From: a virus
Reading direction: 5' to 3' (one strand)
Length of the DNA: 64,000 nt
Virus record (IMG/VR): IMGVR_UViG_3300036860_000057
Coordinates: 14,574 to 78,573 of that record
Positions 4,569 through 35,555 of the stretch are shown in pieces. A model generated the notes under the pieces. The model was not told the origin of the DNA, did no database searches, and saw nothing but the letters and a program-made list of their open reading frames with translations. The position numbers were made by a program, and so were the translations under genes. Position 1 is the first letter of the stretch. Each line of letters begins with the position of its first letter.

Positions 4569-5804
4569 ATGGAGAATAGAATGTCAGAAGAATACCAGTT
4601 AGTAGTAGTAAGCAATAATAAGAGTATTGCAGAATCAGCTAATAGAAAAGTTAAATATACACCCACTGGACTAATTTTTAGTGGGGAAGAGCTTGTTGAT
4701 GAAGAGCGGGATTATCTGCATAACGCTAATGAGATGTTTAGGGTAGGAATGCAGTGGTGTGAGGGTGATCTTCTTGTTGATGATGATAAGACTCCTTATG
4801 GTGAGATGTATAAAGAGCGAATGAAGTCTACAGGAAAGAAGTATGGCACACTGGCAAATTGGAAGTGGGTAGCCAAGTCAATTGAGTTTTCACGGCGTCG
4901 TGAAAACCTCTCTTGGAACCATCATTATGAAGTAGTCCACTATGATCCAGAGACTCAAGATCGTCTCTTAGATTGGTGTGAGAAGGACCCACACACAGGA
5001 CAGAAGCATTCTGTCAGAGATTTAAGAAATCTTATTAATGCAGCTAAACGAATGGAAGTTGATACTCCCGCTCCCTCTGCTGGGTTGTCAGAGTCAATCT
5101 ATAGTGTATTTCGTGGTGATGTGTGGCAGTTGGGCAATCATCGGATCATGTGTGGAGATTCTTACAATCAAGATGATGTAGATAAACTACTGAGAGATGC
5201 TAAACCAACAGCACTAATCAGTGATCCACCTTATGGAATTGACTACAAGCCTAACTGGAATAAGTGGGATGGATCAGCATCAGACTTTAATCCGGTAGAA
5301 GGTGATGATCAGGACTTCGATCCAACACCTTTCCTAAACTACCTTATTGTCTGCCTATTTGGGGCTAATTATTACAGTCCTAAATTGCCTGTGGGCGGAT
5401 GGTTGTGCTGGGATAAGAGGGCTGGGGATGTAGTAAAGGATTCAATGTTGGGATCACCCTTCGAGTTAGCATGGTATCGATCTATCAGGACTACCAGAAA
5501 AGCTATCATGGTGCGTGTTCTACACGGTGGAGTAGTGAATGCTGATAGCTCAGAAGGCAACAATGAGAAGCGTCACCATCCTACTCAGAAACCTGTACAG
5601 GTTATGCGAGAAATACTAGAAAATCTTACAACTAACTCTGATGTTGTATATGATCCTTTTGCTGGCTCAGGTTCTACGCTCTTGGCCTGTCAGGAAACTG
5701 GAAGAAGTTGCCTAGCAATGGAAATTGATCCTGAGTATGTAGCGATTGTTTTACGGCGCTGGGAAAAAATGACAGGTGAAGTTCCTGTAAGATTGGAGTC
5801 TTAG
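4569..5804 (+). CDS. LmbU-like N-terminal domain fused to beta-class N6A/N4C DNA methyltransferase
   Basis: SDPPY (motif IV), HPTQKP, DPFAGSGST (motif I); N-terminal WCEGD..YG..WKWVA..SRRRENLSWNHH resembles LmbU family. Confidence 0.85.
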   Translation: MENRMSEEYQLVVVSNNKSIAESANRKVKYTPTGLIFSGEELVDEERDYLHNANEMFRVGMQWCEGDLLVDDDKTPYGEMYKERMKSTGKKYGTLANWKWVAKSIEFSRRRENLSWNHHYEVVHYDPETQDRLLDWCEKDPHTGQKHSVRDLRNLINAAKRMEVDTPAPSAGLSESIYSVFRGDVWQLGNHRIMCGDSYNQDDVDKLLRDAKPTALISDPPYGIDYKPNWNKWDGSASDFNPVEGDDQDFDPTPFLNYLIVCLFGANYYSPKLPVGGWLCWDKRAGDVVKDSMLGSPFELAWYRSIRTTRKAIMVRVLHGGVVNADSSEGNNEKRHHPTQKPVQVMREILENLTTNSDVVYDPFAGSGSTLLACQETGRSCLAMEIDPEYVAIVLRRWEKMTGEVPVRLES

Positions 5805-7763: not shown

Positions 7764-8861
7764 TTAGTTCTTAGATAATGCTACAGCCTGCTTGAATGCT
7801 CCATCCATTGCCTCACCACGATCACCAATTAGAATATTAGTCATCTGCTTGGCTTTATCACCACGATATACATCACTGTGGTTGATCGTCTGAGTAATGG
7901 CTTGGAATCCACCATACACAGTGTCAGCAGCATAGCTGTACTCATTATTTAACTTCTGGAAATTACCACGAGCCTCTAGGCGAAGTTCACCAATGGTTGT
8001 ATTCCTCTTGTCCATCCAATCCTGCTTATCTTGTGCTACTACGCGAGTAGCATTAATCGCCTTGGAAGATGCACCTGCTGGAATGATACGAGCAAGCTCT
8101 AGTTCTCTAGGTTCTGCTACATAAGGAAAGGCAGACACCAGCAGTGAGTCAAGTCCATCTAAAGTCAATGGAGTTCTTAGCATCTGCTCGAATTGATGAA
8201 GTGCCTTGGTTCGTTCTTTCTCAGCAATCACCATCAGATCACGCCTAAATTCTAGCTCACGATGAATGTCTCCATTGTGAGGAATTCGATGCATCTCACG
8301 AGCGCTGCTCATTGCCAGCATATATGTGTTATAGCACACTTCACGAACTGTAGTAATTCCCCAGAAGGCTGCACCAGGGCCAGAACGATCATCTGATACA
8401 TGCAGATAGGTACGTGTCTTCTCAGTCTCAATTCCACCTACTTCATAGTCTTCCATGCGTAGAGTAATGAAGCTGATCTGCCAATCTTTCACCACTGCAC
8501 AAGTCTCAACAGGATATTTCTCGGATACTGGATCGAGGATTTTGCCAAGGTCCCTGTGTTGGATCATCTTGTAGCGATTGCCAATCCCACTGCGAACCAG
8601 TCTTGGTTCAGGGTCAGATGGAATAGGCTCACGCCACATATCGAAACGATTCTTCACAGGAATACGATGCACTTCTGTAGGCTTGCCATTCTCATCATAA
8701 GCCAGAGGATATTCTGAGTAAGCTGGATGCAGAGAATACTCGAAGTTCATTCCTGCCCATTCCAGTGCTTCAGATGCAATCATAGGGGTGTTGAACACCG
8801 GCATTTTCTCGTGCCATGCCCCTGTCTCGTATCCAGCACCAATGTTGAAGTAATCAGGCAT
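7764..8861 (-). CDS. DUF932 (LGT_TIGR03299-like) phage/plasmid protein
   Basis: AWH N-terminus, Y..IQH, TTVREVCYNT motif, GFQAITQ. Confidence 0.75.
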   Translation of the reverse strand: MPDYFNIGAGYETGAWHEKMPVFNTPMIASEALEWAGMNFEYSLHPAYSEYPLAYDENGKPTEVHRIPVKNRFDMWREPIPSDPEPRLVRSGIGNRYKMIQHRDLGKILDPVSEKYPVETCAVVKDWQISFITLRMEDYEVGGIETEKTRTYLHVSDDRSGPGAAFWGITTVREVCYNTYMLAMSSAREMHRIPHNGDIHRELEFRRDLMVIAEKERTKALHQFEQMLRTPLTLDGLDSLLVSAFPYVAEPRELELARIIPAGASSKAINATRVVAQDKQDWMDKRNTTIGELRLEARGNFQKLNNEYSYAADTVYGGFQAITQTINHSDVYRGDKAKQMTNILIGDRGEAMDGAFKQAVALSKN

Positions 8862-9756: not shown

Positions 9757-9802
9757 TGGTGCAGCAGAGACTCGAACTCTGTGTAGGCCCACCTACCACA
9801 CC
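9757..9802 (-). ncRNA. Minimal tRNA-like RNA (acceptor stem, short hairpin, T arm)
   Basis: GGUGUGG/CUGCACC-A acceptor, UAGG/CCUA hairpin, CAGAG-UUCGAGU-CUCUG T arm. Confidence 0.6.
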
Positions 9803-10696: not shown

Positions 10697-11824
10697 CTAT
10701 AACATAGTAGGCATAATAATGTGCCATGCAGCATACTCAGGTGTAAACTTGATCATGTATCCTATATTAGAAACATTCTTGAAATCAGCACGAATAGAAT
10801 ACCCATCGAACTTAGCAAGAGTTTCCACCAATTGGCTGATCTTGTAGCCTGACTTGATCGACTCACCAATCACATAAGCATCGACTACGCTGTCTGTAGT
10901 ACCCAGATCGCGACTAGTAGCACTCACCCGAATGATCTGCTTATCCTTGTCAGACTCAAGTGATGTGAACTCAGAAAATACTTCAGAACGTTTTAGGACA
11001 ATAGACAGACCATCAGGATCAACTCTCAGTGTATGCAGATCATTGGCAAAGAATATATGAGTGTAGTCAGGAAATTGGCCCTCTGTAAGATGCACGGCGA
11101 ATTCAGCGTTTCCAGACACAATAAACAACATTCCAGCATTGAAAATCAAGTCAATATCTTCCTCATACTTAATCTCATCAGCAAACAGTGACTTGAATTT
11201 CTCAATGGCTGATAGAGGCACGAGTCCCGATACTTTCCCATCGAATGATGGACTCCCAAACTCATATTCTCTGTGAGCCATGCGCTTAGTATCTGATGTT
11301 GTAACCTTGAGGGTGTTGGTATCATACTCGAACCAGACACCACTCAGGGCAGGCAGAACATCATCCTTAGAGGCAGCATACAACACCTCATTCAAGAGCT
11401 TCAACAGCACAGCAGCATTGATCATAATGCTAGGACTATCCTCAGCCTCATTATCTCTAGGCCAAGGAATTAAAGGGAATTCCTCACCGTCGATTCCCTT
11501 GAATGATGCTTTAGTCGCTCCGCAAACAATATTCAATTCCATCGTTCTCTGTACTATGTCTAGCTCGACTCGCTCAGGGGAGAGACGATCTACGAACTTA
11601 GCGAACCTGGTATAGGGAACACAGATTGATCCGTCCTGATCGACTACTGCCCCAACACCTACACGCATATCAGTATCCAGATCAGAAGTCTCAAGATAAA
11701 CACGCCCTGCATGAGTAGAAATTCTCACTGATTCTAGTACAGGCAGTGTTGATTTCTTAGAGACTGTCTTACCAACACGCCTCAGACCATTGGTTAGATT
11801 GTCTTGCAACATTGATACTTTCAT
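10697..11824 (-). CDS. dnaN: DNA polymerase III beta sliding clamp
   Basis: 375 aa; STLPVLE, TSDLD, EFPLIP, LSGV, SDTKRMA, GQFPDY, IIMP match DnaN motifs. Confidence 0.9.
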   Translation of the reverse strand: MKVSMLQDNLTNGLRRVGKTVSKKSTLPVLESVRISTHAGRVYLETSDLDTDMRVGVGAVVDQDGSICVPYTRFAKFVDRLSPERVELDIVQRTMELNIVCGATKASFKGIDGEEFPLIPWPRDNEAEDSPSIMINAAVLLKLLNEVLYAASKDDVLPALSGVWFEYDTNTLKVTTSDTKRMAHREYEFGSPSFDGKVSGLVPLSAIEKFKSLFADEIKYEEDIDLIFNAGMLFIVSGNAEFAVHLTEGQFPDYTHIFFANDLHTLRVDPDGLSIVLKRSEVFSEFTSLESDKDKQIIRVSATSRDLGTTDSVVDAYVIGESIKSGYKISQLVETLAKFDGYSIRADFKNVSNIGYMIKFTPEYAAWHIIMPTML

Positions 11825-16325: not shown

Positions 16326-16350
16326 GATTGACTCCTTGAGTGTGATTAGA

Positions 16351-16411
16351 TTTGTGCTCTCATGAATACTCGTTAAGCCCTACCCTAACGAGTATTAGAT
16401 CAGAGTACAAA
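16351..16411 (-). other. Intergenic stem with 5/4 internal loop (RNase III-like site)
   Basis: UUUGUACUCU/AGAGCACAAA lower stem with one mismatch, GAUCU/CAUG loop, 11-bp AAUACUCGUUA/UAACGAGUAUU upper stem. Confidence 0.5.
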
Positions 16412-16413
16412 AC

Positions 16414-16734
16414 TTACTGAGCGTTGTAGTAGTTACGATATAGCTCCATGCCCACAATGTAACCTTGTCCTGTCCATTGGATCACTGTTTCAGGGAAAGG
16501 CTTACCCATATCATACTCTATGCCTCGAACCGCATAGTGCTTAGTCCCTACTAGTGAGAGGCTAATAGTACGATAACGAGTAATCCCGTTCACTTGCCAA
16601 TTATCCTGACAAGTTACACTGTCTGAGAATTGATCTACTGTATAGCTCATGTCCTCATATAATGTAACGAGTCGCCCTGGTTGACAATCTGAAGCATGAA
16701 ACCCTATCAACAACGCGAGTAGTAATGCTGTCAT
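16414..16734 (-). CDS. Hypothetical secreted protein
   Basis: Hydrophobic N-terminus, AAGGAG RBS. Confidence 0.6.
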   Translation of the reverse strand: MTALLLALLIGFHASDCQPGRLVTLYEDMSYTVDQFSDSVTCQDNWQVNGITRYRTISLSLVGTKHYAVRGIEYDMGKPFPETVIQWTGQGYIVGMELYRNYYNAQ

Positions 16735-16753
16735 GTGTGACTCCTTTAAGTCT

Positions 16754-16809
16754 GGACTCTTCAGTGTAGCTAGTTAGCTACAGACTGGGGACAAGCCCCA
16801 GTTTCGTCC
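16754..16809 (-). ncRNA. Type II hammerhead ribozyme HH-A
   Basis: GGAC-GAAA-CUGGGG(cuugu)CCCCAG-UC^UGUAGC(uaacua)GCUACA-CUGAAGA-GUCC; complete core, three stems, GUC cleavage triplet. Confidence 0.92.
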
Positions 16810-16991
16810 TATAGCTCCCATCGGGGAGCATCACCTCGGCGCATCATCTCATCATTGACTAGTTCTAATTCCTTGCGTATCTGATCCTGGTATTCCTCAG
16901 TCTGATACAGATCAGGATCATCAAGAATAATCAGTAAGTCTAGACGCTTCCAAGAGATTTGTTCGTCGTCTAACTTCTGTAGACTTCTCAT
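16809..16991 (-). CDS. Hypothetical protein flanked by two hammerheads
   Basis: AAGGAG RBS before MRSLQK; the track start lies inside HH-B. Confidence 0.6.
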   Translation of the reverse strand: MRSLQKLDDEQISWKRLDLLIILDDPDLYQTEEYQDQIRKELELVNDEMMRRGDAPRWEL

Positions 16992-17006
16992 TATGTGACT
17001 CCTTGT

Positions 17007-17067
17007 TAGGCTCATCAGTACAGGCTATTACCTGTAGACTAGGGAAAGTATCCCTAGTTTCGTCCTA
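17007..17067 (-). ncRNA. Type II hammerhead ribozyme HH-B
   Basis: UAGGAC-GAAA-CUAGGGA(uacuu)UCCCUAG-UC^UACAGG(uaauag)CCUGUA-CUGAUGA-GCCUA; stem II has a bulged A. Confidence 0.88.
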
Positions 17068-17328
17068 TAGACCAAATCCGTTATCAATAAAGAAACGAGT
17101 AAACCCTATTTCAACAATTCCCCATACAGTGGTCTTGATTAGACCCTCGTTGTTATTAAGAAAATATTGCTTACCCCAGTAAGGATCAATCTTGATTTGA
17201 ATAACCGTGAAAGTGTGATTTTTCTGCATATGGAATAACGTACCGTCAATCCTGACAACATCCCCTACTGACAACATAGGATCAGGATTAGTTTTAACTG
17301 GAACTAGAGGCATACGAAACTTAAGCAT
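17065..17328 (-). CDS. Hypothetical protein
   Basis: AAGGAG RBS before MLKFR. Confidence 0.55.
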   Translation of the reverse strand: MLKFRMPLVPVKTNPDPMLSVGDVVRIDGTLFHMQKNHTFTVIQIKIDPYWGKQYFLNNNEGLIKTTVWGIVEIGFTRFFIDNGFGL

Positions 17329-17339
17329 TGGTAGACTCC

Positions 17340-17555
17340 TTATTTCACGAAAGTATAAATAGGGCGATTGTACTGTGCTGCTAATTTCATTAACTCTACT
17401 GCTACCGCCCATTCACAATTGTACTTATTGCATATTGTTTCCACTACTGCTATCTGCTGAGGCGTTCCGCTTAGTCGCATCTTAGACTCTAGTGAATTAG
17501 AGTAAGAGGCTGTAAGTAGGTCGTCTGGGTTGTACTGGCTGATTACTGTGTTCAT
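17340..17555 (-). CDS. Hypothetical protein, first gene of the leftward array
   Basis: ORF downstream of the promoter. Confidence 0.5.
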   Translation of the reverse strand: MNTVISQYNPDDLLTASYSNSLESKMRLSGTPQQIAVVETICNKYNCEWAVAVELMKLAAQYNRPIYTFVK

Positions 17556-17607: not shown

Positions 17608-17636
17608 ATCATAATCTATAATTATAAACTTGTCAA
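17608..17636 (-). promoter_or_regulatory. sigma70 promoter driving the leftward array
   Basis: TTGACA-N17-TATGAT. Confidence 0.7.
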
Positions 17637-27189: not shown

Positions 27190-29241
27190 ATGGCAGATTT
27201 ACAAAATAGTCTACAGATTGTGTCAGAAATAAAAGAAGTAAACCCAGCAACTATCAGTGATAGATCAGTTGTTGAGACTCCACGTGTTGATGAACGGATG
27301 AATCCGATCAGCCCTCTGGTAATGTTCATAGCCAACAATGCAGATGGTATGATTCCCTGGGGCAAGGCACTTAAGGCCAGAGATGCTCAGCTTCGATCAT
27401 TCTGGTTGGAAGAGTCTTTGTTATCCTCTGCTGTGTTTAGTATGTCAGCGAGAATGGCAGTCTTAGGCTATGAAATAGTCAACTCCGATCCTGATAAGCC
27501 TCGCCAGAAGAATACTATCATGGCAGTTGAAAGAATGCTTCGCAACTCAGATCGTGGTAAGGGTTGGCAGGTGTTTCTAGTTAAACTTCTGGTTGATCTC
27601 TACACTCAGGATAATGGTGCATTTATTGAACTGATCCGTAAAGAGAATCGTCCTGATTCACCTGTGATTAATATTGCTCACCTTGACTCTTACTCTTGTT
27701 ATCGCACAGGTGATCCTCTCATTCCAGTGATCTATCGAGATCGTTTTGGCAATGATCACAAGATGCCTTGGTGGTCTATTCAGACTGTCGAGGAAATGCC
27801 TTCTCCTGTAGAAACAATGTATGGTGCTCAGATGTGTGCAGTGACACGATGTCTGATGGCTGCCCAGATCATTCGTGATGTGGCAATTTATAAAAAGGAA
27901 AAAATTTCAGGACAGTTTGCCAAGGCCCTACACTTTATATCTGGTATTGCTAAAGGCAACGTTGAGGATGGGATTCAATTGGCAAATGAGAATGCCATGA
28001 ACCAGAATCTTACCCACTATATTCAGCCTCCTATCATCTCAACAATTGATCCAGATGCCTCACTAACCCATGTGCAGATTGATCTTGCATCACTGCCTGA
28101 TGGGTTTAATGAAGACCTGACTTTACAATGGTACGTCACACAACTGGCAGTAGCCTTTGGTGTTGACTACCAAGAGTTTGCCCCTCTAACAAGTGGAAGT
28201 ATGGGATCAGGCCAGCAGTCTGAGACACTGCATTTGAAGTCTCGTGGTAAGGGGCCTGCTCTGCTGATCAGTATGCTGGAGCATATTCTAAATGATACAG
28301 GTGTTCTTCCTTCCAATATAAAGTTTCAATTCTTGGTTACAGATGCACAGGCTGATGAAGCTCGTGCTAATGCTAGATTCCTACGTGGTAAGGATCGTGC
28401 TTTGCGTGTGTCTTCTGGTGAATTGGATATTGAAGCTGCTCGTGAATTGGCAAAAGAAGACTCAGATATACCAGTATGGTTATTAGAGTCAATGAAGAAT
28501 CGTCCTATTCCAACACCAGTGAATCAGCAGTTGAATGGTGGTGGAGGCTCTGCACCTGCTCCTAAGCAGAGAACTGCTATCGGGAATGAGAATGTGGAAG
28601 GTGGGTTGAACTCCAGGGCTACTAGAAAGTCCTATGAGAGTGATCTGGTTCGATCTGAGATAATAAAAAGGCTCCTTGAAAGAGGGGATATGAAGGAGAT
28701 TGATCCTTCTGGATTTGTCTATCTTTGTTTAGAGAATGATCCACAAATTACCAGTATACTAAGAGATTATCAGCAACTTATGGATGATCCCAATATTGAA
28801 TGGCAATCTGTTCCCACTTTTCATATTACACTTGCTTATGCTCCAGAAGTAACTTATGCACAACTTCTTGAAGTATCTCAGTCTATTCACATGCCTCAGC
28901 CTATACCAGTTGATCTTGATCATATTCATATGTTTGAAGCAGGGAATGATTCTTTTGCTCGTGCTCTAGTGATGCTAGTGAAGAAGAATGAATATCTAAT
29001 TCAGTTGCAGAAACAAGTTGTAGACATTTTTAATGGAATGGGAATTTTACTATCTCCCTACAGTAATCCTGATGTGTGGACTCCTCATATCACTATTGGG
29101 TATATTCCAAGTAGTGCGGATGTTCCAGAAGTTTTACCACCTATGTATCATAGAATAATAGCAGATAAGACGGTAGTAGGTAAAGGCGACTATGAAAAAT
29201 TTGCAACTATCCAAGCCCCTAAAATGGGTGGTGTATATTAA
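27190..29241 (+). CDS. Portal protein with C-terminal 2H phosphoesterase domain
   Basis: Position after TerL; portal-like N-terminal ~480 aa; FHITLAY and PHITIGY HxT motifs about 88 aa apart. Confidence 0.8.
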   Translation: MADLQNSLQIVSEIKEVNPATISDRSVVETPRVDERMNPISPLVMFIANNADGMIPWGKALKARDAQLRSFWLEESLLSSAVFSMSARMAVLGYEIVNSDPDKPRQKNTIMAVERMLRNSDRGKGWQVFLVKLLVDLYTQDNGAFIELIRKENRPDSPVINIAHLDSYSCYRTGDPLIPVIYRDRFGNDHKMPWWSIQTVEEMPSPVETMYGAQMCAVTRCLMAAQIIRDVAIYKKEKISGQFAKALHFISGIAKGNVEDGIQLANENAMNQNLTHYIQPPIISTIDPDASLTHVQIDLASLPDGFNEDLTLQWYVTQLAVAFGVDYQEFAPLTSGSMGSGQQSETLHLKSRGKGPALLISMLEHILNDTGVLPSNIKFQFLVTDAQADEARANARFLRGKDRALRVSSGELDIEAARELAKEDSDIPVWLLESMKNRPIPTPVNQQLNGGGGSAPAPKQRTAIGNENVEGGLNSRATRKSYESDLVRSEIIKRLLERGDMKEIDPSGFVYLCLENDPQITSILRDYQQLMDDPNIEWQSVPTFHITLAYAPEVTYAQLLEVSQSIHMPQPIPVDLDHIHMFEAGNDSFARALVMLVKKNEYLIQLQKQVVDIFNGMGILLSPYSNPDVWTPHITIGYIPSSADVPEVLPPMYHRIIADKTVVGKGDYEKFATIQAPKMGGVY

Positions 29242-34679: not shown

Positions 34680-34751
34680 GCGTGTGTGGTGTTAATGGTA
34701 GCATCACACTCTTCCAAAGTGAAGGTTAGGGTTCGAGTCCCTACACACGCA
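34680..34751 (+). tRNA. tRNA-Gly(TCC)
   Basis: GCGTGTG/CACACGC acceptor, anticodon loop CTTCCAA, GTTCGAGTC T arm. Confidence 0.9.
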
Positions 34752-34918
34752 CAAGCTGGGGTGTTCCCAGCATAGCAAGGAGACACTTATGTACTTCGTG
34801 CCGCTTCTCTCGTCTACAGGTCAAATCCTCCCCGATTGGCTTAGGCAAAAGAAGCTATCGTCACCGTAGTAAAGTGTAACTTCCGGCTATAAGGGAGGGT
34901 GAAAGTCCCTCCCACCAT

Positions 34919-34989
34919 ACATCTGTGATCTAATGGTAAGAGCACAATCTCCAAAATTGTGAATCCTCGTCCGAATCGAGGCAGATGTG
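34919..34989 (+). tRNA. tRNA-Trp(CCA), atypical T loop
   Basis: ACATCTG/CAGATGT acceptor, ACAAT-CTCCAAA-ATTGT anticodon arm, T loop TCCGAAT. Confidence 0.8.
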
Positions 34990-35023
34990 CTGACCAGTTA
35001 TCATCATTCCAAAGGAGGAATAA

Positions 35024-35179
35024 ATGTTCAACTGGGGCCGTATAAGAACGGTGCTATTGGGGTTGCTTCTTATTGCAGCAGGACTAATTCTGGCGTTCAA
35101 TCTGAACTTCACCAACATGAATTATGTCCTTGCTGTACTGGCAATCTTCGATGGCGTTCTATGGATTATATTTCCATAG
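35024..35179 (+). CDS. 51-aa two-TM membrane protein (not in ORF track)
   Basis: AAGGAGG RBS; MFNWGRIRTVLLGLLLIAAGLILAFNLNFTNMNYVLAVLAIFDGVLWIIFP. Confidence 0.65.
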   Translation: MFNWGRIRTVLLGLLLIAAGLILAFNLNFTNMNYVLAVLAIFDGVLWIIFP

Positions 35180-35296
35180 AAAAATGGAAGGTCTGATACT
35201 GGAGTAAGATGTTCGAACCATCAGCCTTCCAGTTGCCCATGAGGGCATTTTCCTGCGGATTGAGGGGAGTGAACTGAAGGCACTCCCCTCTTTATT

Positions 35297-35368
35297 GCCA
35301 ACATAGCACAATGGTAGTGCAAATCTTTTGTAAAGATTAGGCTGAGAGTTCGAATCCCTCTGTTGGCT
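35297..35368 (+). tRNA. tRNA-Thr(TGT)
   Basis: GCCAACA/TGTTGGC acceptor, AATCT-TTTGTAA-AGATT anticodon arm, GTTCGAATC. Confidence 0.9.
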
Positions 35369-35555
35369 CTTAGGGCAGTAAGTGTGGGGCAAGGCTTAGG
35401 CATAACCTTGAATATCTGTACTGCCCTATATAAATTATGAGAGACATATTATTTATTGTTGTATATGTAGCTGGTGAGTTAGTTGCAGTCCTGACAGATT
35501 GTGTAATTCTTGTTGGTGCAGTTCTGTACGTCATATTGAAATGGTAATTATAGAT

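What the first reader, a model, noticed from the sequence alone, without database searches (positions are those of the whole stretch)
16754..17067. Tandem type II hammerhead ribozymes that would excise a single small gene
Seen: both have full cores (CUGAAGA or CUGAUGA, GAAA, GUC) and different but fully paired stems I and III, i.e. covariation between the copies. In both, the UAG stop of the upstream ORF overlaps the 5' strand of stem II (CUAUAGGACGAAAC) and AAGGAG follows within 10 nt. Predicted cuts are 17037/17036 and 16783/16782, releasing a 254-nt RNA that encodes one 60-aa protein and has 5'-OH and 2',3'-cyclic phosphate ends. Inference: monocistron production; a terminating ribosome could gate folding; such ends are RtcB-ligatable, so a circular mRNA is possible.
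Basis: partly seen in the sequence, partly recalled or inferred. Interest (0 to 1): 0.92.

Follow-up and report, generated by a model that had tools for sequence, protein, structure and literature searches.

The report
Two hammerhead ribozymes flanking phage gene
Two genuine self-cutting RNA motifs (type II hammerhead ribozymes) sit on either side of a 60-codon gene in an uncultured soil phage and probably cut one long early message into gene-sized pieces. This layout has been described in phages since 2011 and is common, so this is a clean new example, not a new kind of system.

Summary
On the minus strand, 17067-17007 and 16810-16754 each carry a complete hammerhead core with hairpin stems I and III and an open stem II. 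A covariance model built from 92 other phage type II hammerheads, without these two, finds exactly these two sites in the 78.6-kb genome (57.4 and 46.5 bits).

Perreault et al. 2011 already described clustered hammerheads flanking single prophage genes, proposed processing into single-gene mRNAs, and looked for circles without finding them.

In IMG/VR contigs I found 214 such ribozymes:
- 27 of 96 adjacent pairs lie under 400 nt apart, around unrelated small ORFs.
- The stop codon touching the ribozyme is a feature of the whole class (64 of 143 at 0 or -1).

Nothing here supports a circular mRNA or ribosome gating, and no RNA data exist for this phage. The upstream copy has a one-base deletion in stem II and may cut more slowly. 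Rfam's curated threshold misses both copies and most of this subclass. This scan has reported the same layout before on many other genomes.

The parts
17007..17067 (-). Type II hammerhead ribozyme, copy 1 (upstream). The predicted cut lies between 17037 and 17036. Stem II has a one-base deletion (GCC instead of GUCC).
   Evidence: Sequence. Class model R1 scores 46.5 bits, E 2.1e-11. RF02276 scores 25.4 bits, below its cut-off of 37. The minimum-energy fold is the three-way junction.
16754..16810 (-). Type II hammerhead ribozyme, copy 2 (downstream). The predicted cut lies between 16783 and 16782. The core is CUGAAGA (N7 = A) and stem II is a perfect GGAC/GUCC.
   Evidence: Sequence. R1 scores 57.4 bits, E 1.4e-14. 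The minimum-energy fold equals the hammerhead fold, with ensemble frequency 0.42.
16809..16991 (-). 60-aa ORF between the two ribozymes. AAGGAG lies at 17004-16999, and its UAG shares its G with stem II of copy 2. It matches no known family.
   Evidence: ORF list. No Pfam or PHROG match. An 87%-identical relative of the same length exists elsewhere.
16783..17036 (-). Predicted 254-nt excised RNA. It starts with a 5'-OH and the stem I hairpin and ends with the stem III hairpin and GUC with a 2',3'-cyclic phosphate.
   Evidence: Coordinates. The fold keeps both terminal hairpins.
17065..17328 (-). Upstream 87-aa ORF. Its UAG overlaps stem II of copy 1.
   Evidence: No family and no relatives in viral contigs.
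16414..16734 (-). Downstream 106-aa ORF. AAGGAG lies at 16746-16741, 7 nt after copy 2.
   Evidence: No family and no relatives.
17608..17636 (-). Likely promoter of the leftward operon (TTGACA, 17 nt spacer, TATGAT; 11 of 12 consensus positions). It lies about 540 nt upstream of copy 1.
   Evidence: Consensus scan. No terminator-like site was found on the minus strand between 18200 and 13800.

Best explanation
These are two type II hammerhead ribozymes in consecutive gaps between genes of an early, leftward, multi-gene transcript of an uncultured 78.6-kb soil phage.

Proposed mechanism:
1. The transcript starts at the promoter near 17608-17636.
2. Each ribozyme folds as it is made and cuts itself after the C of GUC.
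3. The message falls into three pieces: genes 1-2; a 254-nt single-gene mRNA for the 60-aa protein; and the downstream genes.
4. Because the topology is type II, each upstream piece keeps its stop codon and ends in the stem III hairpin with a 2',3'-cyclic phosphate.
5. Each downstream piece begins with a 5'-OH and the stem I hairpin, with its ribosome-binding site left single-stranded.

The likely result is that the stability and translation of neighbouring genes become independent of each other.

Shown: the motifs, their class membership and their geometry. Inferred: cleavage in vivo, and the effect on expression.
For: - Both copies have complete cores and paired stems.
- The class model, built without them, finds only these two sites: 57.4 and 46.5 bits.
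- In the 92-sequence alignment 98.1% of cells are paired, against 69% in shuffles and 30-43% when partners are slid. There are 426 double-change cells.
- In the unselected pattern hits, 153 of 157 have a stem I of at least 5 bp.
- Stem II also covaries in the other ribozymes found in the fetched loci that lack GGAC/GUCC.
- The minimum-energy folds equal the hammerhead fold.
- The ribozymes lie on the same strand as the genes, with a strong promoter upstream and no terminator between.
- The context matches the class. The stop codon ends at 0 or -1 in 64 of 143 cases, and the start codon lies 10-35 nt downstream in 117 of 127.
- 27 of 96 adjacent pairs are under 400 nt apart and enclose one small unrelated ORF.
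- Published work shows tandem prophage hammerheads all cleaving in vitro (PMC3088659) and type II hammerheads cleaving in vivo in Desulfovibrio vulgaris (PMC8782182).
Against: - There is no RNA evidence for this phage.
- Copy 1 has a one-base deletion in stem II and scores 11 bits lower than copy 2.
- Both copies offer only 3 bp of complementarity between loop I and the 3' tail, less than the pseudoknot of 4 bp or more that the literature links to fast cleavage.
- Neither copy reaches Rfam's curated score.
- The effect of cleavage on mRNA stability depends on the host and is unknown. From my own knowledge, 5'-OH ends are degraded by RNase J1 in Bacillus.
Confidence: 0.7

Rival explanations
1. 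Cleavage is gated by translation. A ribosome terminating on the UAG that shares its G with stem II covers the first 10-12 nt of the ribozyme. Cutting would then happen only when the upstream gene is not being translated, or only after the ribosome leaves. This would link processing to translation. It is a refinement of the main explanation rather than an alternative to it.
For: - The stop codon overlaps stem II in both copies.
- Across the class, the stop codon ends at 0 or -1 in 64 of 143 cases and within -4 to 0 in 98 of 143. No ORF end was found inside the ribozyme up to +12, the limit scanned; no stop codon can form in the fixed GGACGAAAC.
Against: - The same pattern follows from plain genome compaction.
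- The A before GGAC is a conserved ribozyme position in at least 90% of sequences, even where the stop codon lies further upstream. UAG, UAA and UGA can therefore be embedded there at no cost.
- No kinetic or expression data exist.
Confidence: 0.15
2. The excised 254-nt RNA is joined into a circular mRNA. The joining would be done either by the hammerhead that its own two ends can rebuild through stem II, or by a host ligase such as RtcB.
For: - The ends have the right chemistry.
- The joined ends, folded in isolation, form a hammerhead at -21.6 kcal/mol.
- Stem II of copy 2's 5' half is identical to that of copy 1, so the hybrid is as good as copy 1 itself.
Against: - The phage has no RtcB.
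- The end-to-end stem II is absent from the minimum-energy fold of the whole RNA, whether linear or circular.
- Only 53 of 96 adjacent pairs, and 16 of 32 close pairs, in other phages have compatible stem II strands, so circles are not a conserved need.
- The ORF has a stop codon and 254 is not a multiple of 3, so endless translation is not possible.
- Perreault et al. looked for circular or spliced products and found none.
Confidence: 0.04
3. One or both motifs no longer cut. They would instead act only as hairpin-rich spacers between genes that stabilise the RNA, or as short conserved boundaries at which small genes are exchanged between phages.
For: - Copy 1 has a defective stem II.
- The enclosed genes across the class are unrelated small ORFs of unknown function in variable early regions.
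- The next gap between genes in this operon carries a long plain hairpin instead of a ribozyme.
Against: - Every conserved core base is intact in both copies.
- The three stems are kept by compensatory changes.
- A stem II of one or two base pairs is reported as active in natural type II hammerheads.
Confidence: 0.1

Closest known systems
Clustered hammerhead ribozymes flanking single genes or short gene blocks in prophages (Clostridium scindens, Azorhizobium caulinodans, Agrobacterium tumefaciens; Perreault et al. 2011, PMC3088659)
   Same: - Several hammerheads lie on one multi-gene phage transcript.
- They bracket individual genes of varying identity.
- Processing to single-gene mRNAs was proposed.
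- Circles were considered.
   Different: - This case is a free phage genome from a soil metagenome.
- There are only two copies.
- The 254-nt spacing is at the short end of the range (8 of 96 pairs at 200-300 nt).
- Nothing has been tested experimentally.
Type II hammerhead ribozyme, Rfam RF02276
   Same: - The same permuted topology: stem II open, stems I and III capped.
- The same core.
- A conserved A before stem II.
   Different: - Both copies fall below the curated score.
- They belong to a subclass with a 4-bp GGAC/GUCC stem II.
- The subclass shows no enrichment for a loop I/3'-tail pseudoknot.
- Rfam's threshold misses most of the subclass: it flags 3 of 44.
Type II hammerheads of Desulfovibrio vulgaris, shown to cleave in vivo by cyPhyRNA-seq (PMC8782182)
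   Same: Type II motifs near phage-like genes. They show that this topology cuts inside bacteria.
   Different: They are single, dispersed loci in a bacterial chromosome, not a pair around one gene.
Hammerhead-processed circular RNAs (Avsunviroidae, plant satellite RNAs, retrozymes)
   Same: Two cuts release a unit-length RNA with 5'-OH and 2',3'-cyclic phosphate ends that can rebuild a hammerhead.
   Different: - Those RNAs replicate and are ligated by known host ligases.
- They are mostly non-coding, and their circles have been shown.
- Here the template is DNA, the unit encodes a protein, and no circle is shown.
Engineered ribozyme insulators such as RiboJ (from my own knowledge, not checked here)
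   Same: A hammerhead placed just before a ribosome-binding site gives the downstream gene a defined 5' end that does not depend on the upstream sequence.
   Different: Those are synthetic parts. The natural function is inferred by analogy only.

Membership tests
Hammerhead ribozyme (catalytic class) | Conserved core: C3 U4 G5 A6 N7 G8 A9, G12 A13 A14, the A15.1-U16.1 pair, a non-G base at position 17, and the G10.1-C11.1 pair | tested here: met
   Both copies carry every position. The cores are CUGAUGA and CUGAAGA, with GAAA, A...U and GUC, and G after the core pairing with C before GAAA. N7 = A occurs in 6 of 157 class members.
Hammerhead ribozyme (catalytic class) | Three helices around the core, supported by covariation | tested here: met
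   The minimum-energy folds show three stems. In the class alignment 98.1% of cells are paired, with 426 double changes. The two copies differ by four compensatory pairs. Stem II of copy 1 is imperfect: a bulged A or a shifted register.
Hammerhead ribozyme (catalytic class) | Self-cleavage 3' of position 17, giving 2',3'-cyclic phosphate and 5'-OH ends | not testable with these tools
   No sequencing run on record as RNA holds this phage.
Type II topology (Perreault et al. 2011) | Stems I and III closed by loops, and stem II formed by the two ends of the motif | tested here: met
   The order of elements is GGAC, GAAAC, hairpin, GUC, hairpin, CUGANGA, G(U)CC.
Type II topology (Perreault et al. 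2011) | Pseudoknot of 4 bp or more between loop I and the 3' tail. The paper reports it for the majority of type II examples and links it to fast cleavage; it is not universal. | tested here: not met
   The best contiguous complementarity is 3 bp in each copy. In the GGAC/GUCC subclass it is no more frequent than in shuffled tails (10% against 9% with 4 bp or more). This is not a defining feature of the class, but it bears on the cleavage rate.
Rfam RF02276 Hammerhead_II (curated model) | Score at or above the gathering cut-off of 37 bits | tested here: not met
   Copy 1 scores 25.4 bits. Copy 2 is not reported. This is an operating threshold of one model. The same threshold flags only 3 of 44 clear class members in 13 loci.
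Clustered phage hammerheads between genes | Same strand as the genes, placed between a stop codon and the next ribosome-binding site, in several copies on one transcript | tested here: met
.

The most novel reading that the evidence does not exclude
The 254-nt RNA cut out by the two ribozymes is rejoined into a circular, translatable mRNA for the 60-aa protein. The joining would be done by the hammerhead that its own ends can rebuild, or by a host ligase. This would be the first protein-coding RNA circle made by ribozymes in a bacteriophage.
Probability: 0.04. Interest if true: 0.8.

Novelty: new member of a known kind. Interest (0 to 1): 0.25.

Why it matters
For this locus the value is in annotation. 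It adds two unannotated ribozymes, and a likely processing map, to the early operon of an uncultured phage.

Three points reach a little further:
1. Rfam's curated threshold misses most of a large phage subclass of type II hammerheads, so standard pipelines under-report them.
2. In this subclass the upstream stop codon is built into the first bases of the ribozyme in nearly half of the cases, and the next start codon follows within 10-35 nt. The ribozyme therefore fills the whole gap between genes. I found no mention of this in the 2011 paper. It gives a simple way to test whether translation and cleavage interact.
3. Ribozyme pairs around one tiny gene are frequent enough to serve as a test set for the unresolved question of what these ribozymes do for phages.

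Tried and rejected
- Rfam at its gathering score over the whole window found only tRNAs.
- An Rfam E-value search of the region gave a 17.3-bit type III alignment. It joins copy 1's stem I and cut site to copy 2's GGACGAAAC across a 198-nt loop. This is a possible alternative pairing, but it is weak and uses the same cut site, so I did not pursue it.
- blastn of 1.3 kb against 50,697 phage records gave no match.
- Searches for relatives of the 60-aa, 106-aa and 87-aa proteins in viral contigs found none.
- Two searches of metagenome contigs, with the 60-aa protein and with its 87% relative, found none.
The DNA around the 87%-identical relative P0002 could therefore not be read, and I could not test whether relatives of this phage keep the two ribozymes.
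- Sequencing runs: no RNA holder was listed. There are four soil DNA runs. Laying them gave only three 151-166-nt contig pieces outside the ribozymes and no variants.
- RtcB was sought in the phage and is absent.
- Loop I/3'-tail pseudoknot: no enrichment in the subclass.
- Adjacent pairs showed no preference for compatible stem II strands: 53 of 96. The sample was collected with a GGAC/GUCC pattern, so this count is biased.
- The 60-aa protein has no similarity to 30-odd other ORFs enclosed by ribozyme pairs.
- The shared AAGGAGTCAC after both copies is the operon's usual ribosome-binding site, not part of a ribozyme cassette.
- The supplements of the 2011 paper held as text do not contain the alignments. 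I could not check whether this exact subclass was in its data set.

Full report
**What is there**

The window is bases 14574-78573 of a 78.6-kb IMG/VR virus record rated 99% complete. DNA runs that hold it are soil metagenomes.

Reading the minus strand of 16500-17400 shows two elements with the same order of parts:
- a stop codon UAG whose G is the first base of GGAC
- GAAAC
- a hairpin
- GUC
- a second hairpin
- CUGAUGA (copy 1) or CUGAAGA (copy 2)
- G(U)CC
- 5-8 nt further on, AAGGAG and an ATG

This is the circular permutation called type II: stems I and III are capped and stem II is formed by the two ends of the motif.

- The cuts fall after C 17037 and after C 16783.
- The product is 254 nt.
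- The ORF 16991-16809 encodes 60 aa.

The two copies differ by three compensatory pairs in stem I and one in stem III.

**Is it more than chance?**

Rfam at its curated thresholds reports no hammerhead in the window. On short stretches, RF02276 gives copy 1 25.4 bits against a cut-off of 37 and does not report copy 2. I therefore built an independent test.

1. A core pattern with no requirement for stems was scanned over IMG/VR.
2. Of 157 distinct hits, 153 have at least 5 contiguous pairs in stem I and 146 have at least 3 in the variable part of stem III. Shuffled inserts almost never reach these values.
3. Ninety-two of the hits, excluding the window's copies, were aligned (A1). In this alignment 98.1% of cells are paired, against 69% after shuffling and 30-43% with slid partners. 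There are 426 double-change cells.
4. The covariance model built from A1 (R1) finds exactly two sites in the window and in the whole genome: 16744-16815 at 57.4 bits (E 1.4e-14) and 16998-17071 at 46.5 bits (E 2.1e-11). Both scores lie inside the range for class members.
5. The minimum-energy fold of each copy is the hammerhead three-way junction.
6. The other ribozymes found in the fetched loci that lack GGAC/GUCC show stem II covarying as well: GGUC/GACC, AGAC/GUCU, GAGC/GCUC and others.

The motifs are real type II hammerheads.

**A weakness in copy 1**

Copy 1 reads GAGCC where the class has GAGUCC. Its stem II is therefore either G-C, a bulged A, then CCUA/UAGG, or the shifted register that the folding program chooses. 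Natural type II hammerheads with a stem II of one or two pairs are reported to be active (PMC3088659), so I expect activity, perhaps slower.

Both copies offer only 3 bp between loop I and the 3' tail. In this subclass such complementarity is no more common than in shuffled tails. Conserved instead are a U-G pair that closes loop I and an A on each flank of stem II. The tertiary contact in this subclass is therefore probably not the published pseudoknot.

**Context**

The ribozymes lie on the coding strand of a leftward block of small genes:
- An 11-of-12 sigma-70-type promoter lies at 17636-17608.
- No terminator-like site on that strand occurs down to 13800.
- The flanking proteins (71, 87, 60, 106, 162, 108, 213 and 196 aa) have no Pfam family. 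Only one has a PHROG match, and that family has no known function. This is typical of early phage genes.
- The 60-aa ORF has a 60-aa relative at 87% identity in another assembly, which supports it as a real gene.
- AAGGAGTCA is the usual ribosome-binding site of this operon, not part of the ribozyme.

**How general the layout is**

A descriptor scan of the fetched loci found 214 type II hammerheads and none in reversed controls. One strand of one locus carries up to nine.

Of 96 adjacent same-strand pairs:
- 8 are 200-300 nt apart
- 19 are 300-400 nt apart

The enclosed ORFs (54-121 aa) are unrelated to each other and to the window's protein.

For 143 ribozymes with an upstream ORF of at least 40 codons:
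- The stop codon ends exactly on the first G of stem II in 34 cases and one base before it in 30.
- It lies within 4 nt in 98 cases.
- No ORF end was found inside the ribozyme up to +12, the limit of the scan; no stop codon can form in the fixed GGACGAAAC.

The next start codon lies 10-35 nt after the ribozyme in 117 of 127 cases.

**What is already known**

Perreault et al. 2011 (PMC3088659) reported the following:
- Type II hammerheads occur naturally.
[quoted passage not shown] - Three tandem arrangements cleaved in vitro as expected.
- Spliced or circular products were considered but not detected.

A 2019 review still lists the function as suggested, not established (PMC6765202). Type II hammerheads near phage-like genes cleave in vivo in Desulfovibrio vulgaris (PMC8782182).

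This scan has already reported the same layout in many other genomes, with the same verdict. I reached my verdict from my own tests and from the paper itself.

**Most likely mechanism**

Both ribozymes cut as the RNA is made, dividing the early transcript into three pieces. Because of the type II order of parts, each upstream piece keeps its stop codon about 28 nt from the new 3' end. That piece ends in the stem III hairpin with a cyclic phosphate. Each downstream piece starts with a 5'-OH and the stem I hairpin, and its ribosome-binding site is unpaired in the predicted folds.

This should make neighbouring genes independent of each other in stability and translation. That consequence is inference. 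The direction of the stability effect depends on the host's RNases.

**Rivals**

- **Ribosome gating** is compatible with the overlap but not required by it. The A before GGAC is a conserved ribozyme position whatever the distance to the stop codon, and compaction alone explains the abutment.
- **A circle** is chemically possible. The joined ends fold as a hammerhead in isolation. However:
  - The phage has no RtcB.
  - The end-to-end helix is absent from the predicted fold of the whole RNA.
  - Only about half of adjacent pairs elsewhere have compatible stem II strands.
  - The ORF has a stop codon.
- **A dead relic** is unlikely, given the intact cores and the compensated stems.

**Verdict**

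This is a correct and careful observation of a known kind of element. The locus is a clean, compact example: two copies, 254 nt apart, around one 60-aa gene. It is not new in kind.

The by-products with some wider use are the under-detection by Rfam (3 of 44 flagged) and the class-wide statistics on stop and start codon positions.

Noticed in passing
window 16326-16420 (-): The next gap between genes in the same operon folds into a long irregular hairpin of about 25 pairs (-29.1 kcal/mol, z -4.24, 0 of 200 shuffles as stable). It has no U tract. It may be an RNase III-type processing or stabilising site rather than a terminator.
   Followed up: partly
window 27190-29241 (+), residues 518-650: A 683-aa protein ends in a 2H phosphoesterase domain (PF13563, 29.8 bits, above its cut-off; LigT_PEase weaker). 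Enzymes of this fold act on 2',3'-cyclic phosphate ends, the kind hammerheads make. Any link is speculation. I did not test whether the N-terminal part is the portal protein.
   Followed up: partly
window 9758-9802 (-): A weak Rfam match to mascRNA-menRNA, a tRNA-like RNA processed by RNase P (26.1 bits, E 0.08, below its cut-off). The leftward array may use several kinds of RNA processing signal.
   Followed up: no
loci L005-L097 (13 IMG/VR loci): Rfam RF02276 at its gathering score reports 3 of the 44 type II hammerheads that the class model R1 finds there. Standard annotation therefore misses most of the GGAC/GUCC subclass.
   Followed up: yes
alignment A1 and 157 pattern hits in IMG/VR loci: Many class members have a 3' tail AUCAG (or GUCAG where the core is CUGAC). 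The tail is complementary to the core's CUGAU or CUGAC as well as to loop I. Others have AG...GACUY, complementary to GAGUC. These could be alternative hairpins that form after cleavage. The window's copies lack them.
   Followed up: partly
fetched IMG/VR loci; e.g. L123, L054, L085, L009, L020, L105 hold several each: Arrays of up to nine type II hammerheads lie on one strand of a single fetched locus, with different stem II sequences at successive ribozymes in some phages (e.g. L123, L105).
   Followed up: partly
window 10697-11824 (-), 7764-8861 (-), 4569-5804 (+): The phage encodes a DNA polymerase III beta clamp (three domains), a DUF932 protein and an N6/N4 DNA methylase. There are three tRNA genes (Gly, Trp, Thr) at 34680-35369.
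   Followed up: no
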